A DNA stretch of 64,000 nucleotides from Heteronotia binoei. Its lineage: Eukaryota. The stretch lies in contig NC_083225.1 in assembly GCF_032191835.1 (NCBI RefSeq), positions 83,700,001 to 83,764,000 of the forward strand. Reading direction: 5' to 3'. The position numbers were made by a program. Each line of letters opens with the position of its first letter. Positions within the stretch are counted from its first letter, which is position 1. This document shows, piece after piece, positions 45,301-51,300 of this stretch.

Positions 45301-48300
45301 TTTAAAAACCTGGGTTAAGTCTTCATTAACTTGAAAGGTCTGCATTAAAACCATTAAAAATCTGTTTGTCTTCAGAAGCTAAAGTGGGATAAAGAGCCCA
45401 TATAAAAGACGTCTATATTAGCCTAAATTTATGATACCTAAATGCAGTACATTGTATTTTATTGAATATAACATGGCTGTTTTACTAGAGATGGTTGCTA
45501 GGATCACATTTCTTCACTTGGAGGCAGAATTTCCAGTAATCCTATTCTGAGGCTTTTAAAGGAGGATTTAAAAAAAATAATTGGCCAGCTTCCACACACT
45601 CAAGAGTCTTGATCCAATACCCATTAAAGTTCCATTACATTTGAGATGTTTTGGAAAAAGGTTACATGGGTGTTGTCATCATAAAATCATTTATATGTGA
45701 TAAGATGCTGATGTGAATTCTACACGGCACTAGAGAAGGGAATTGCATTGATTTTAGGAGGCTAAAGTTGGTTCCTTATTCGCAGATCCTTATTCATTCC
45801 TTATTCTTGAATTCAAACAAAAACACTGAAGGAAGGAAGGGGGTACAGGAGGGGTAGGAGTTTCTTAAAAGTGAAATATTGAAAGCGCAATCACAGACGA
45901 TTCCTATGAGGAGAAAAAATGGAAAAAGCCTAAAGAAGTCTAAGTGGCTCCATAAACAGCTCTTTAAAGACTTGAGAAATAAAAAAGACTCCTTTAGGAA
46001 TTGGAAGGAGGGCCTTATAACCAAGGATGAATCTAAACAAATCACAAGTGCTTGTAGAGAAAAGTTAGGAAAGCTAAAGCTCAGTATGAGCTTAGGCTGG
46101 CCAAAGATGCTAAAAACAACAAAAAAGAGTTCTTTTTTTATGATCAGAGTAAGAAAAAGAGCAAGGACAAGGTAGGCCCATTGCAAGGGCAGGAATGTGA
46201 AATTGTAACAGGTAATGAAGAGAGGGCAGAATTACTCAATTCCTACTTTTCCTCAGTATTCTCTTCTGAGGGAAATGGTGCTCACCATGGCAAAAACAGA
46301 ACATATAAGGAGGGTATGAAGTTCCAACCTAGGATCAGCATAGGGATAGTACATAAACACCTAGTTTCTTTAAATGAATCTAAGTCCTCAGGGCCAGATG
46401 AATTGCATCCAAAGGTTCTAAAAGAGCTTGCAGATGTAATTTCTGAGCCTCTAGCTATTGTTTTTGAGAATTATTGGAGAACAGGAGAGGTGCCGGAAGA
46501 TTGGAAGTGGGCGAATGTTGTCCCCATCTTCAAGAAGGGGAAAAAAGATGATCTGGGTAACTACCGACCTGTCAGCTTGACATCTATACCTGGAAATGTT
46601 TAAGAACAAATCATCAAACAGTCGGTCCTGGAACATTTAGAAAGAATTGAGTGATTACTAAGAGCCAGCATGGTTTTCTCAAGAACAAGTCATGTCAGAC
46701 TAACCCGATCTCTTTTTTTTGAGAAAGTGACTACCTTGCTGGATCAGGGGAATGCTGTAGACGTGGTTTATCTTGATTTCAGTAAGGCTTTTGATAAGGT
46801 TCCACATACTATCCTTGTTGACAAGTTGGTAAAATGTGGTTTAGATCCTGTTACCATTAGGTGGATCTGTAACTGGTTGACAGATCACACCCGAAGACTG
46901 CTTGTGAATCCTCTTGGAGAGGAGTGACAAGTGGAGTGCCTCAAGGATCTGTTCTGGGACCTGTTTTGTTCAACATCTTTATCAATGATTTGGATGAAAA
47001 ATAGAGGGAATGCTTATTGAATTTGCCTATGATACTAAATTGGAAGGGGTTGCAAATACAGAAGAAGACAGAAACAGGATACAGGATGACCTTGACAGGC
47101 TGGAAAACTGGGCTAAAATTAATAAAATGACTTTTAACAGGGATAAATGTAAAGTTCTACATTTAGGTAGGAAAAATCCAATGCATGGTTATAGGATGGG
47201 GGAGACTTGTCTTAGCAGTAGTATGTGCGAAAAGGATCTAGGGGTCTTAGTGGATCATACGCTGAACATGAGTCAACAGTGTGATGCAGTGGCTAAAAAG
47301 GCAAATGCAGTTTTGGGCTGTATCAACAGAAGTATAGTGTCCAGATCACGTGATGTGATGGTATCGCTTTACTCTGCTCTGGTAAGACCTCACCTGGAGA
47401 ATTGTCTTCAGTTTTGGGAACCACATTTTAAGAAGGATATAGACAAGCTGGAATGGGTCCAGAAGAGGGAGATGAGGGTGGTGAGGGGTCTGGAGACCAA
47501 GTCCTATGAGGAAAGGTTGAAGGAGCTGGGGATGTTTAGCCTGGAGAGGAGGCGGCTAAGAGGTGATATGATCACCCTCTTCAAGTATTTGGAGGGCTGT
47601 CATCTAGAGGATGGTGTGGAATTGTTTTCTGTGGCCCTGGAGGGTAGGACCAGAAGCAATGGGTTGAAATTAAATCAAAAGAGTTTCCGGTTCAACGTTA
47701 GAAAGAACGTCCTGACAGTTAGAGCGATTCCTCAGTGGAACAGGCTTCCTTGGGAGGTGGTGGGCTCTCCTTCCTTGGAGGTTTTTATACAGAGGCTAGA
47801 TGGCCATATGACAGCAATGAAGATCCTGTGATTTTGGGGGGAGGTGTTTGTGAGTTTCCTGCATTGTGCAGGGGGTTGGACTAAATGACCCTAGAAGTCC
47901 CTTCCAGCTCTATGATTCTATGAAATGGGCCAGAAAGCTAGCAAGCTCTGTTAGGTGGTTTTCAAGATCTCCATATTTGCACTTGGAAAAAATTATGGAC
48001 TATACTTATACTTTTGGCACAAGCACTTTATGATACTAAAAATCTTCAAATCCATCATTGTATTGAAATTTGATAAACTTTATTGAATTTTCTATGAAGA
48101 TCTCCCAGAATTACATTTTATCTTCTGTTTCCCTAGAGACCAGTTTCCCTAGAGAAAGTGACTGCTTTGCAGGGTGAACTTCCCTTGCCCAGTTCTCTGG
48201 ATCCCATGGGAGAAATACAAAGAAAGAACCTTTAAGACCAACAAGTGTTAATGTTGTAAGGATATTTTAAGGTTTGTTTTTTAAAAAAATAATAATAATA

Positions 48301-51300
48301 ATTGTGTTTGTATATGTCCTTTATAAAGTTTATATCTCTGCTATGTAATCTTAAATAGGTACATACATGGCCCAGCTCGACAAGGTTTCATTTATGTCAG
48401 ATCCAGCCCTCATAAAATGTATCTGACACTCCTGCCCTAGCAGAATAATTATTCTCAGTTGAATGCTCCATGTTACAACTGGTTAATTCCTCCAGATTAT
48501 TATAAAATCAACTAATACAGATCAAGGTGTTTTCTTGTTGGTTCCTTATTCATGAATGCAAACAAAAAAACTGAAGAGAGTTTGAAAGCTCTGAACCCCA
48601 AAATAAGGTCTGGACCCCCATTCACGAATAAGGAACCAACTTCAGCCTCTATTGATTTTGCAGAAACAAGGTTCGGCCCCTTCCCAGCCGAGCCTGCTCG
48701 CAGGCCATAGGCTGGGGGCCGTCTTTGCTCCTCCGGAAGGAAGGAGGGGCAGAAGGATCACCCGACATACGGGTGTTTTAGCTGGGCGCGGAGGCGGGGC
48801 TATTTAAGCCCCGGCTCCCGCCTCAGCACGCAGTTCGTTTTGGCTCTCTGGTTGGAGAGCCACGTGCGGCATCGTGGAGCGGAAGACGAGGCCTGAGTCG
48901 TCAGGGCCTGTACCTTGGCCAGCGAGGTCGGAGCGCGAGCGGCGGCTACAGCGCTGGCTGGGTGAAACGCGGAGCGCGAGCGGCGGCTGCAGAGCTGGCT
49001 GGATGAGACGCGTGCGGCTGCTGGGACGCTTGAGGCGGCGGTTTGCGCAAGTGGGAGTCGGGCGGCCCTTTCGTTGGGTAAAGGGGCGGCCCGGGGGGGT
49101 TGCTGGCGGCTGGTGACGGCGGCGGCATTCTATAGGTTGGGAGGCCACAGAAGGCAAGCGCTAGCGGCGGCCATTTCGTCGGCGCTGGGGCCCTTTGCTC
49201 ATTCAGGGGCTAATTTAGTGAGCATTAGCTGTGGGAGACGAGCGCTGGCCTCCTGTTTCTTCGCCCCTCGGTACCGGGCTTAGAGCGCAGCGGCCCTTCT
49301 AAGGGGCGGTGCGCACGCGGCGGCCGTTTTAGGGCATCCAAAAGGGTGATCAACATATGGAATTTACTGCGCAGGATGTGGTGGCGGCCGCGGGTATGGC
49401 CACTGTTCAGAGGGGTTTAGATAGAGCACAGGCCCATTGGTGGCTATTGGCCACAGTGTAGGTGTGTGTATGAAATCTTTTGCCACTGGGTGACACAGAG
49501 TGTTGGACTTGGTGGGCGGTTGGCCTGAACCAACAGGGCTTCTCTTCTGTTCTTCTGTGACACAGAGTGTTGGACTGGATGGGCCATTGGCCTGATCTAA
49601 CATGGCTTCTCTTATGTTCTTCTGTGACACAGCATGTTGGACTGGAGGGGCCATTGGCCTGATCTAACATGGATTCTCTTATGTTCTTCTGTGACACAGA
49701 GTGTTGGACTGGATGGGCCATTGGCCTGATCTAACATGGCTTCTCTTATGTTCTTATGTGATGCAGAGTGTTGGACTGGATGGGCCACTGGCCTGATCCA
49801 ACATTGCTTTTCTTATGTTCTTCTGTGACACAGGGTGCTGGACTTGATGGGCCGTTGGCCTGAACCAACAGGGTTTCTCTTATGGCCTTCTGTGACACAG
49901 AGTGTTGGACTGGATGGGCCATTGGCCTGATCTAACATGGCTTCTCTTATGTTCTTCAGTGACACAGTGTGTTGGACTTGACGGGCCGTTGGCCTGAACC
50001 AACAGGGCTTCTCTTGTGTTCTTCTGTGACACAGAGTGTTGGACTGGATGGGCCATTGGCCTGATCTAACTTGGCTTCTCTTATGTTCTTCTGTACACAG
50101 AGTGTTGGACCTGATGGGCCGTTTGCCTGATCCAACACGGCTTCCCTTATGTTCTTACCCTGCCTTTGGGCGGCATTGGGAGCTCTCACCAGAATCATAC
50201 CCTGGGGCCGAGGCTTGTGCGCGTGAGCTGCTAGTCGGTGCGGCGCGGGCCTCCCTTCTCAGAGCTGCCTGGTCGGGGCTGCAAGGAGCAGTTCGGGATG
50301 GCTCTGGCAGCGCTGGACAGCTTTAAATAGCTTTTAAGTAGCACATGAATGGCAAAGCAGTTCTTTAAGGAATGAGGGAGCTTGGGCGGGGGTGCACGAG
50401 GTGAGACCGGGTGGCCCCCCCCTCCCCTCTTTTTTCCTTCCCCCTCCCGGCGGGTCCAGATGGATAGGCTTTAAACTTCAGCTTGAGTCCATGGGAGTTG
50501 TTGCAGTCAGTGCGGTCAGCGCTGACCCTGGTGTAACCGGGGGTCTGATTCAGTATAAGGTAGCTTCATATTTTGTATGTTCAAGGTCTCCTTTGGAGCC
50601 AGTTTGGTGTAGTGGTCAAGGCGGACTATTATCATTTCACCTGAATTGCCCAGGTTAGGTGATCTTGTTAGATCATGGAAGTTAAACAGGGTCTGCTCAG
50701 GTCAATACCCGGATGGGAGACCACCGAGGAATACCGGAGCTGTTATGCAGAGGCTTGCAGTTAGGGTTGCTGGCCTCCAGGTATGTCCTGGAGACTTCCC
50801 ACTTTGGGAGAGCCAGGTTTCATTCACTACTCCACTACTTGCACCTTTTGCATAGCTCTGGCAGGAGCTGGCCTGGATAAGGCGGCTGCCATGGGAGCCC
50901 TCTTTAGCCCCACCCACCTCGCGGGGTGCCTGTTGGGGGAGAGGGAGGTACTGGAGATGGTGAGCCGCTCTGGGACTCTCCGGAGTGGAGGGCGGATATG
51001 GGTCCTGTATCTTCCTCCTTTTGAAAGGGTAGCTTCTTTGTGAGCTCTCCCAGCCTACCCACGTTGCAGGGCGTCTGTTGTGGGAGGAGAGGATGGAGAC
51101 GCCTCCTCCACCTGTATTAGGTCAAAGCCGTGGCCTTGGCGGCGGGCGCCCCATTGGGGAGGTGGTGGCAATCAGCAGCCCCTTGAAAAGGGGGCCCTGC
51201 CCCATTTGACTGAGGGTACTCGGTTGATTGATGAGCAAGTGCCCATGTGCAGCTGATGGCCAGTATCTGCCCAGGGTGTTTCTCTTTGGGGTGTCTGAGC

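What the first reader, a model, noticed from the sequence alone, without database searches (positions are those of the whole stretch)
45797..48576. 2.7-kb CR1-plus-unique-flank block is an inverted copy of DNA ~10 kb downstream, inserted into a MITE
Seen: 47484-48178 is the reverse complement of 57188-57882 (CR1 3' end plus ~260 bp of non-repeat flank). 48176-48540 is the reverse complement of 55584-55949 (half a MITE plus ~105 bp of flank). The two parts join through a 3-nt GAA microhomology that skips ~1.24 kb of the source. The block lies between 35-bp imperfect direct repeats (45797-45831 and 48542-48576, 32/35) inside a small TIR element. Inference: either a 3' transduction by CR1, which is unusual because CR1 is considered strict about its own 3' tail, or a templated insertion during break repair with a template switch. 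The source CR1 later lost most of ORF2.
Basis: partly seen in the sequence, partly recalled or inferred. Interest (0 to 1): 0.65.

Follow-up and report, generated by a model that had tools for sequence, protein, structure and literature searches.

The report
Nearby DNA copied backwards into a MITE
A 2.7-kb piece made of a CR1 retrotransposon fragment plus its neighbouring DNA sits, reversed, inside a small hairpin-forming transposon a few kb from its source; it looks like a scar of DNA break repair, not of CR1 jumping.

Summary
That element also has a perfect 9-bp target-site duplication.

New findings:
- Arm differences are not uniform. A clean 384-nt run spans the GAA junction, between stretches about 2.5% and 4% diverged (permutation P about 9e-4). 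This points to at least two events: an older duplication and a recent exchange.
- The source CR1 keeps only the last ~99 codons of an esterase ORF1 and the last ~113 of ORF2. It was truncated on arrival, so it is a poor retrotransposition source.
- The copy's 3' end carries neither a CR1 tail nor poly(A), and the skip has no splice sites.
- Copy and source lie 7.0 kb apart, or 0.56 kb if a 6.5-kb GC-rich block is a later insertion.
- A 4-nt GTTG overlap at the right junction fits fold-back priming.

Best reading: a local, DNA-level fold-back or templated inverted duplication into a hairpin MITE, later partly homogenised. CR1 3' transduction is unlikely. I could not check genome-wide copy number, orthologs or long reads. 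Interest is modest.

The parts
45747..45755 (.). Left copy of the 9-bp target-site duplication (ATTGATTTT) of the small TIR element
   Evidence: 9/9 identical to 48651-48659
45756..45831 (+). Left part of the small TIR element (150 bp without the block). Holds the left TIR 45758-45782 and direct-repeat copy 45797-45831
45832..47922 (+). 5'-truncated CR1 in the copy: ORF2 from about codon 367 of the reference to the end, with at least two frame changes, plus 3' UTR ending in the octamer ATTCTATG
   Evidence: tblastn 45837-47801 in several frames; 51-63% identity to bird and turtle CR1 ORF2; octamer 47915-47922; only a weak RVT_1 match
47484..47884 (+). Outer left stretch of arm 1 (CR1 tail): 10 substitutions in 401 nt against the source
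47885..48268 (+). Identical core: 384 nt with no difference from the source, spanning the GAA junction
   Evidence: P about 9e-4 for so long a clean run given 22 substitutions on 1,057 sites
47923..48178 (+). Copy of the 256-nt non-CR1 flank (flank1), 100% identical to 57443-57188
48176..48178 (+). GAA overlap at the junction that skips 1,238 nt of the source
   Evidence: Chance of an overlap of 3 nt or more is about 0.05
48179..48540 (+). Copy of source segment 55946-55584 (arm 2). The part 48269-48540 carries 12 substitutions and 11 gap columns
48537..48540 (+). GTTG shared by the end of the source segment and the TIR element: 4-nt overlap at the right junction
   Evidence: Chance of 4 nt or more is about 0.016-0.019
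48541..48650 (+). Right part of the small TIR element. Holds direct-repeat copy 48542-48576 and right TIR 48625-48649; folds by itself into a hairpin
   Evidence: DNA fold -18.6 kcal/mol, z = -3.4, 0 of 200 shuffles as good
48651..48659 (.). Right copy of the 9-bp target-site duplication
48667..55153 (+). GC-rich non-coding block in the spacer, with exact terminal repeats. Possibly a later insertion; not part of the duplication itself
55584..55949 (-). Source of arm 2
55950..57187 (-). 1,238 nt present only in the source. Its end forms tandem ~105-120-nt units that continue into 55949 and below
57188..57443 (-). Source of flank1
57444..57885 (-). Source CR1 tail: ORF2 codons ~922-1034 and 3' UTR with the octamer
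57945..58241 (-). C-terminal ~99 codons of a GDSL-esterase ORF1 (CR1-type), ending at its stop codon 59 nt upstream of the ORF2 tail. No ORF1 homology further upstream
   Evidence: for esterase ORF1 in canonical CR1

Best explanation
This is the scar of a local, DNA-level inverted duplication: a fold-back or templated insertion during repair of a break. It is not a CR1 retrotransposition.

Proposed sequence of events:
1. A 150-bp hairpin-forming TIR element (45756-48650 today) broke in its loop.
2. The 3' end of the right-hand broken end folded back and paired through 4 nt (GTTG/CAAC) with 55584-55587. That site is 0.56 kb away if the GC-rich block 48670-55151 came later, and 7.0 kb away today.
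3. The end was extended rightwards along the same strand. It copied arm 2, probably the 1.24 kb, flank1, and about 2.1 kb of a CR1 copy that was then longer.
4. The new strand was joined to the left-hand end at 45831/45832. About 35-40 nt of the element's stem arm survived on both ends and is now the 32/35 direct repeat.
5. After about 3% divergence, a second exchange between the two arms made 384 nt around the GAA junction identical. The likely mechanism is break repair using the other arm as template and ending in microhomology joining. This event probably also removed the 1.24 kb from the copy.
6. At some point the source CR1 lost ORF2 up to about codon 921.

Shown: the arms, junctions, overlaps, repeat structure, mosaic divergence, truncated source and hairpin.
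Inferred: the order of events, fold-back priming, the break site in the hairpin, and the timing of the ORF2 loss and of the 6.5-kb block.
For: - Locality and orientation. Source and copy are tail to tail on one contig with a single-copy spacer of 7,043 nt, or 561 nt without 48670-55151. In human inverted duplications all 21 sequenced junctions had a spacer of 766-70,466 bp, and 13 of the 18 junctions without repeat homology had 2-8 bp of inverted microhomology (passages read, PMC3907307).
- Right junction. The 4-nt GTTG overlap has a chance of about 0.016-0.019. Its strand geometry gives the observed orientation (worked out).
- The source is ancestral at the GAA junction. Its internal tandem units run across 55949/55950.
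- The source CR1 holds only the last ~99 codons of ORF1. All 9 ORF1-type proteins used in tblastn match 57945-58241 only. It therefore has no CR1 5' end or promoter.
- The copy's 3' end has no octamer or poly(A). No GT-AG, GC-AG or AT-AC borders fit the 1.24-kb skip.
- Mosaic divergence. 10 of 401, then 0 of 384, then 12 of 272 plus 11 gap columns. P about 9e-4 for the clean run.
- The 3 mismatches in the 35-nt repeat fit the outer-arm rate (P = 0.11) better than the arm-1 rate (P = 0.014).
- The right half of the host element folds as a hairpin (z = -3.4). The repeat copy 48542-48576 runs from 4-5 nt inside the stem base (48537) to an inner loop.
- The host element is a single insertion with a 9/9 target-site duplication and both halves in the same orientation. 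That excludes an inversion of the spacer.
Against: - A 35-40-nt flanking direct repeat is what target-primed reverse transcription predicts. It is not a standard product of fold-back repair, and my account of it (a staggered break at a hairpin) is inference only.
- The copy holds 1.65 kb of CR1 ORF2 (45832-47483) that the source lacks. The model needs the source's ORF2 deletion to be later than the copying, which is unproven.
- The left junction cannot be examined, because the source no longer has that sequence.
- That the 6.5-kb block is a later insertion rests on composition, exact terminal repeats and a 6-nt AAACAA repeat only.
- The identical core could also come from assembly polishing.
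- No genome, ortholog or read data could be consulted. The flank may be multi-copy elsewhere.
Confidence: 0.6

Rival explanations
1. CR1 3' transduction. A read-through transcript of the downstream CR1 (CR1 plus about 1.9 kb of flank) was reverse-transcribed by target-primed reverse transcription at a nick in the TIR element. The reverse transcriptase jumped 1.24 kb at GAA, the 5' end was truncated, and a 35-nt target-site duplication formed.
For: - Flanking direct repeat 32/35.
- 5'-truncated, sense-oriented CR1 at the 5' side of the block.
- 4-nt overlap at the 3' junction that could serve as primer-template pairing.
- Heavy 5' truncation is typical of CR1 (passage, PMC4316615).
Against: - The source is 5'-truncated inside ORF1 and so has no CR1 promoter.
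- No CR1 hairpin, octamer or poly(A) at the block's 3' end. CR1 reverse transcriptase is thought to need that 3' structure (passages, PMC8665684; PMC4316615; 'stringent' type, PMC3747384).
- Landing within 7 kb of the source is roughly a 1e-5 coincidence for an RNA route (my estimate).
- Mosaic divergence needs a second event anyway.
- I found no report of CR1 3' transduction. In search, 67 papers held at least 4 of the 5 terms; of the 15 listed, the three CR1-focused ones had 0 occurrences of 'transduction'. The term also had 0 occurrences in PMC13343379 and PMC3747384.
Confidence: 0.05
2. Two independent CR1 insertions. A 5'-truncated CR1 inserted on its own into the TIR element, and the 35-nt repeat is its target-site duplication. 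Later a break at its 3' end was repaired by strand invasion into the homologous tail of the neighbouring, oppositely oriented CR1, which copied that CR1's flank into the element.
For: - Explains why the copy has ORF2 sequence that the source lacks.
- Explains the direct repeat by ordinary retrotransposition.
- All 10 differences in arm 1 lie in the CR1 part and none in the 256-nt flank.
Against: - Everything right of the CR1 tail should then be of one age. Yet 48269-48540 has 12 substitutions and 11 gap columns while 47923-48268 has none, so two further events are needed.
- It needs two copies of one CR1 subfamily, 97.5% alike, within a few kb. No third copy exists in the 64-kb window.
- The CR1 tails (2.5%) are no more diverged than arm 2's outer part (4.1%; Fisher P = 0.19).
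Confidence: 0.12
3. One single DNA-level templated insertion with a template switch at GAA, with no later exchange. The uneven divergence would be chance or local mutation-rate differences.
For: - It is the simplest history.
- The GAA overlap fits a template switch.
Against: - A clean run of 384 nt among 22 substitutions on 1,057 sites has P about 9e-4.
- The 3 of 35 mismatches in the flanking repeat are too many for the core's age.
Confidence: 0.13
4. Assembly artefact: a false inverted join or a polishing effect created the second copy or the identical core.
For: - Exact 184-nt and 399-nt repeats lie nearby (48667-48850 = 54409-54592; 54013-54411 = 54755-55153). These are the kind of thing mis-assembly produces.
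- The window has two N gaps.
Against: - The arms differ by 22 substitutions, 11 gap columns and a 1,238-nt indel, and have different outer ends. A fold-back read artefact would give identical arms.
- The copy sits cleanly inside a TIR element whose 9-bp duplication is intact.
Confidence: 0.05

Closest known systems
Fold-back inverted duplications with a single-copy spacer (Hermetz et al. 2014, PMC3907307; passages read)
   Same: An inverted copy lies next to the original. A single-copy spacer separates them (0.56-7.0 kb here; 0.77-70 kb there). A few nt of inverted microhomology sit at the junction between spacer and inverted copy (4 nt here; 2-8 there).
   Different: Those are megabase duplications ending in terminal deletions or translocations. 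This one is a 2.7-kb interstitial patch captured by the other broken end and flanked by a 35-nt direct repeat.
Replication template switching at short interrupted inverted repeats (ODIRA, Brewer et al. 2024, PMC10766186; abstract and section 7 read), and FoSTeS/MMBIR (recalled)
   Same: A hairpin-capable inverted repeat lies at the junction, the copy is inverted, and the joins show microhomology.
   Different: ODIRA gives inverted triplications that contain a replication origin. Nothing of that kind is seen here, and there is only one extra copy.
LINE 3' transduction (known for L1; recalled: Moran 1999, Goodier 2000, Pickeral 2000)
   Same: LINE tail plus downstream flank moved together. The 5' end is truncated and direct repeats flank the whole.
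   Different: - There is no poly(A) or LINE-type tail at the end of the flank.
- The source lacks its 5' part.
- The offspring lies beside the source.
- CR1 is regarded as a stringent-type LINE.
Aborted synthesis-dependent strand annealing finished by microhomology end joining (recalled from Drosophila P-element gap-repair work; no paper read here)
   Same: A tract identical to the template lies on both sides of a deletion junction that has a 3-nt overlap.
   Different: There it was seen in induced gaps repaired from a sister or homologue. Here the template would be an inverted paralogue on the same chromosome, and the event is only inferred from divergence.

Membership tests
CR1 LINE (45832-47922 and 57444-58241) | ORF2 with reverse transcriptase homologous to CR1 ORF2 | tested here: met
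   - 1,838 proteins with E <= 1e-10 among 4,110 candidates. The best 120 are bird and turtle reverse-transcriptase proteins at 51-63% identity.
- tblastn covers reference codons 367-1028 in the copy and 922-1034 in the source.
- Pfam alone gave only a weak RVT_1 match (22.2 bits, below the 29.6 cut-off).
CR1 LINE (45832-47922 and 57444-58241) | 3' end with the octamer microsatellite ATTCTRTG | tested here: met
   ATTCTATG at 47915-47922 and 57444-57451(-), one full unit after a partial one. The motif comes from PMC8665684. The other 8 of the 10 window matches are unrelated; 5.9 are expected by chance.
CR1 LINE (45832-47922 and 57444-58241) | Stable hairpin upstream of the microsatellite | tested here: inconclusive
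   the fold of 47832-47930 is -25.8 kcal/mol, z = +0.43, with 125 of 200 shuffles as good. Short stems are visible but not significant.
CR1 LINE (45832-47922 and 57444-58241) | Esterase-type ORF1 upstream of ORF2 | tested here: met
   Source only.
- 330 proteins at E <= 1e-3. The best align the fragment to their last residues.
- 16 of 16 scanned proteins match PF13472 at E <= 1e-3, and 14 of 16 exceed the curated cut-off. I chose these 16 for length from the 150 listed.
- homology covers only 57945-58241.
- PMC13343379 passages: canonical CR1s carry an esterase ORF1, and lepidosaur L2 lacks ORF1.
- Against: Pfam on the fragment itself found nothing, and the word-index search found nothing.
LINE 3' transduction | Source element able to be transcribed from its own 5' end | tested here: not met
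   ORF1 homology covers only the last ~99 codons; of 120 ORF2-type proteins run against 57883-61000, only one weak hit. The source is 5'-truncated today; its state at the time of copying is unknown.
LINE 3' transduction | Transduced flank ends in the 3' signal used by the reverse transcriptase | tested here: not met
   no octamer and no A-run at 48480-48540.
LINE 3' transduction | Target-site duplication flanking element plus flank | tested here: met
   32/35.
Fold-back / templated inverted duplication | Inverted copy next to the original with a single-copy spacer | tested here: met
   the spacer 48541-55583 has no copy of either arm.
Fold-back / templated inverted duplication | Inverted microhomology at the junction between spacer and inverted copy | tested here: met
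   GTTG. Chance about 0.016-0.019.
TIR DNA transposon (small host element 45756-48650) | Terminal inverted repeats and a target-site duplication | tested here: met
   TIR 24/25. Target-site duplication 9/9.
TIR DNA transposon (small host element 45756-48650) | Multiple copies in the genome | not testable with these tools
   No other copy in the window. No genome of this organism was available.
   no TIR reported; weak end-to-end alignment (score 9) and a 6-nt CTAGCA repeat beside the presumed ends.

The most novel reading that the evidence does not exclude
A CR1 reverse transcriptase, usually thought to need its own 3' hairpin and octamer, primed on the non-CR1 end of a read-through transcript from the neighbouring CR1. 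It jumped templates at GAA and inserted the product beside its source. That would be a true 3' transduction by a stringent-type LINE.
Probability: 0.05. Interest if true: 0.65.

Novelty: new member of a known kind. Interest (0 to 1): 0.3.

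Why it matters
This is a well-preserved, base-resolved example of a kb-scale local inverted duplication captured inside a hairpin-forming MITE. It shows three things:
- A repair event can mimic a LINE insertion: a 5'-truncated LINE, flanking direct repeats and carried-along flank. A TE annotator could wrongly score such a locus as 3' transduction.
- Inverted paralogues a few kb apart keep exchanging sequence, so arm identity understates age.
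- The flanking repeat runs from the base of the MITE's stem to a loop, which suggests a structure-directed break. If that recurs at other hairpin MITEs, it would be a general source of TSD-like repeats made without a transposase.

No function is implied for the locus itself.

Tried and rejected
- **Inversion of the spacer with duplicated breakpoints** (staggered-break model, recalled). Rejected: both halves of the host TIR element keep the same orientation, and its 9-bp duplication is direct.
- **Splicing of a read-through transcript as the cause of the 1.24-kb skip.** Rejected: with the GAA ambiguity the possible borders are GA..TA, AA..AG, AT..GA and TT..AA. None is canonical, and none is on the other strand either.
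- **Pfam on the ORF1 fragment and on 30 ORFs around the locus.** Only a weak RVT_1 match.
- **Word-index protein search for longer relatives of the ORF1 fragment.** 145 candidates, none at E <= 1e-3. The exhaustive HMMER search then found 330.
- **120 CR1 ORF2-type proteins against 57883-61000.** One weak hit only, so there is no hidden ORF2 upstream of the source.
- **Rfam on the whole window.** 0 matches.
- **Looking for other CR1 tails of this family through the octamer.** 8 of 10 matches were unrelated.
- **Target-site duplication of the source CR1.** None convincing between 58242-58290 and 57443 downward.
- **Pfam on ORFs of at least 55 aa in the 6.5-kb GC-rich block.** 78 ORFs over two calls, no credible family.
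- **Kapitonov and Jurka 2003.** Not held; I saw only its citation.
- **Genome file.** None was present. Genome-wide copy number of flank1, orthologous empty sites and read support all stayed unchecked.
- **Last word-index protein search.** Not spent on the 59-aa ORF across CR1 tail and flank1, because a blank would say nothing.

Full report
**1. Observation**

- Arm 1: 47484-48178 is the reverse complement of 57882-57188 (695 nt, 98.56%, no gaps).
- Arm 2: 48176-48540 is the reverse complement of 55949-55584 (93.8% over 371 columns, 11 of them gap columns).
- The two arms abut in the copy through GAA. In the source they are 1,238 nt apart (55950-57187).
- The block 45832-48540 (2,709 nt) is flanked by 45797-45831 and 48542-48576, which match 32/35.
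- The N runs are far away and were left alone.

**2. Anatomy of the copy**

tblastn with a bird CR1 ORF2 protein covers 45837-47801 (reference codons ~367-1028) in several frames. The CR1 is therefore 5'-truncated and decayed. The 277-aa ORF 46998-47828 has 1,838 relatives at E <= 1e-10 among 4,110 candidates. The best 120 are bird and turtle reverse-transcriptase proteins at 51-63% identity. The window is therefore not human. My guess that it is a squamate rests only on a recalled SINE resemblance.

The CR1 octamer ATTCTATG (motif from PMC8665684, passages) lies at 47915-47922 and, in the source, at 57444-57451 on the minus strand. The copy thus consists of:
- CR1: 45832-47922.
- A 256-nt non-CR1 flank: 47923-48178.
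- 362 nt of more distant source DNA: 48179-48540.

**3. The host element**

The block sits in a TIR element. The TIRs 45758-45782 and 48625-48649 match 24/25. A perfect 9-bp duplication ATTGATTTT abuts both ends. Without the block the element is 150 bp.

Its right half folds by itself into a hairpin (DNA fold -18.6 kcal/mol, z = -3.4, 0 of 200 shuffles as good). The repeat copy 48542-48576 runs from 4-5 nt inside the base of that stem (48537) to an inner loop.

Both halves have the same orientation. That rules out an inversion of the DNA between the arms.

**4. The source**

Upstream of the source's ORF2 tail (57885-57547, codons ~922-1034) and 59 nt away lies an ORF (58235-57945) that is the C-terminus of a GDSL-esterase protein.

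- An exhaustive HMMER search found 330 relatives at E <= 1e-3 (75 at <= 1e-10). The best align the fragment to their very last residues.
- Of the 16 longer ones I scanned (chosen for length from the 150 listed), 16 of 16 match PF13472 at E <= 1e-3, and 14 of 16 exceed the curated cut-off.
- Several of those proteins are chimeric gene models (with KRAB, Shisa, FNIP or collagen), as expected for transposon ORFs.
- tblastn with 9 of them matches only 57945-58241.
- PMC13343379 (passages) states that esterase ORF1s are the only recognisable ORF1 type in CR1 and L2, that canonical CR1s carry them, and that lepidosaur L2 lacks ORF1.

The source is therefore one CR1 copy, 5'-truncated within ORF1, that has lost ORF2 up to about codon 921.

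Results against this: Pfam on the fragment itself and the word-index search found nothing.

**5. Direction**

In the source, 55927-56065, which crosses the junction point 55949/55950, is homologous to 56046-56170 (67.6% over 139 nt, E = 1e-5 within the window). By eye, three tandem units each start CTTGCTTTGCCAGG-like and end AGAA. The source is continuous there, and the copy's junction is derived.

**6. Mosaic divergence**

The 22 substitutions between copy and source are not spread evenly.

| Stretch | Length | Differences |
|---|---|---|
| 47484-47884 | 401 nt | 10 substitutions |
| 47885-48268 | 384 nt | none |
| 48269-48540 | 272 nt | 12 substitutions, 11 gap columns |

Placing 22 substitutions at random on 1,057 sites gives so long a clean run in about 9 of 10,000 trials (200,000 trials). 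The clean run spans the GAA junction.

The 3 mismatches in the 35-nt flanking repeat are unlikely at arm 1's rate (P = 0.014) but acceptable at the outer-arm rate of 3.3% (P = 0.11).

I read this as an older duplication followed by a recent exchange between the arms around the junction. That exchange may also have made the 1.24-kb deletion. The mechanism I have in mind is break repair templated by the other arm and finished by microhomology joining. This is recalled from Drosophila gap-repair work; I read no paper on it here.

**7. RNA or DNA?**

Against CR1 3' transduction:
- The source has no CR1 5' part.
- The block's 3' end has neither an octamer nor an A-run, while CR1 is held to recognise its own 3' hairpin and microsatellite (passages: PMC8665684; PMC4316615; PMC3747384).
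- The skip has no canonical splice borders.
- Source and copy are 7,043 nt apart.
- I found no report of CR1 3' transduction. In search, 67 papers held at least 4 of 5 terms; of the 15 listed, the three CR1-focused ones had 0 occurrences of 'transduction'. The term was also absent from PMC13343379 and PMC3747384.

For an RNA route: the flanking repeat, the 5' truncation, and a 4-nt overlap usable for priming.

**8. Fold-back model**

The end of the source segment and the host element share GTTG (48537-48540; source ...CTTGTTG|TACTGG; element AAAGTTG|GTTCC). The chance of an overlap of 4 nt or more is about 0.016-0.019.

If the element broke, the bottom-strand 3' end ...CAAC of the right-hand end can pair with GTTG on the same strand at 55587-55584. 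Extension then runs to higher coordinates. That gives exactly the observed orientation and order: arm 2, flank1, CR1.

Human fold-back inverted duplications show the same signature. All 21 sequenced junctions had a spacer of 766-70,466 bp, and 13 of 18 had 2-8 bp of inverted microhomology (PMC3907307, passages). Template switching at short interrupted inverted repeats is another documented route (PMC10766186, abstract and section 7).

The 35-40-nt direct repeat is not predicted by these models. I attribute it to a staggered break at the hairpin (stem base and loop), which is inference.

**9. The spacer**

The stretch 48667-55153 is GC-rich (0.50-0.58 against 0.35-0.43 around it) and non-coding. 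Across ORFs of at least 55 aa gave no credible Pfam family.

- It begins with a 184-nt unit and ends with a 399-nt unit.
- Both units recur at 100% identity in a short second unit at 54409-55153.
- AAACAA abuts both ends.

If this block is a later insertion, the copy landed only 561 nt from the end of its source. If it is an assembly duplication, the spacer is still only a few kb.

**10. Verdict**

Unchecked, because no genome of this organism was available:
- Copy number of flank1 elsewhere.
- Orthologous empty sites.
- The state of the source's ORF2 in relatives.
- Read support.

The kind of event is known. This is a clean new example of modest interest.

Noticed in passing
48667-55153: A 6.5-kb GC-rich non-coding block. 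It starts with a 184-nt unit (48667-48850) and ends with a 399-nt unit (54013-54411). A short second unit follows: 54409-54592, then 162 nt, then 54755-55153. Both repeats are 100% identical, and AAACAA abuts both ends. This is either a young composite insertion in tandem or an assembly duplication. The first unit has a TATA-like motif and the last an AATAAA.
   Followed up: partly
49490-50156 and 33025-33100(-): A tandem array of ten 67-nt units (87% matches) inside the GC-rich block. One solitary unit, 92% alike, lies 16 kb upstream on the other strand. The unit resembles a LINE or SINE 3' tail (recalled, not tested).
   Followed up: no
53352-53619: An older copy, 82% alike, of part of the 399-nt unit lies about 690 nt upstream of it. 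That unit therefore occurs three times at a spacing of roughly 0.7 kb.
   Followed up: no
22949-24472(+), 30008-30958(-), 33556-34943(+): Three further LINE reverse-transcriptase fragments, 25-45% identical to the bird CR1 ORF2 reference. They belong to families other than the one in the finding.
   Followed up: no
14405-15388, 24868-25688, 29767-30488: Three copies of one repeat family at 75-77% identity, in both orientations. They overlap or adjoin the LINE fragments above.
   Followed up: no
3295-3351: A perfect 56-nt palindrome, 100% self-complementary.
   Followed up: no
55927-56170: Three tandem units of about 105-120 nt inside the source-only DNA, each starting CTTGCTTTGCCAGG-like and ending AGAA. 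The copy's GAA junction falls exactly on a unit border.
   Followed up: partly
45770-45815: The left arm of the small TIR element carries CCTTATTC three times within 40 nt, while the repeat copy at 48542 has it once. This looks like slippage, and it makes the true length of the flanking duplication ambiguous (35 to about 40 nt, or more with a 25-nt indel).
   Followed up: partly
17991-18137 / 41435-41582; 36476-36600 / 39728-39852; 7352-7466 / 9944-10056: Three further pairs of short dispersed repeats at 92-94% identity, one inverted and two direct. These are probably SINE or MITE copies.
   Followed up: no
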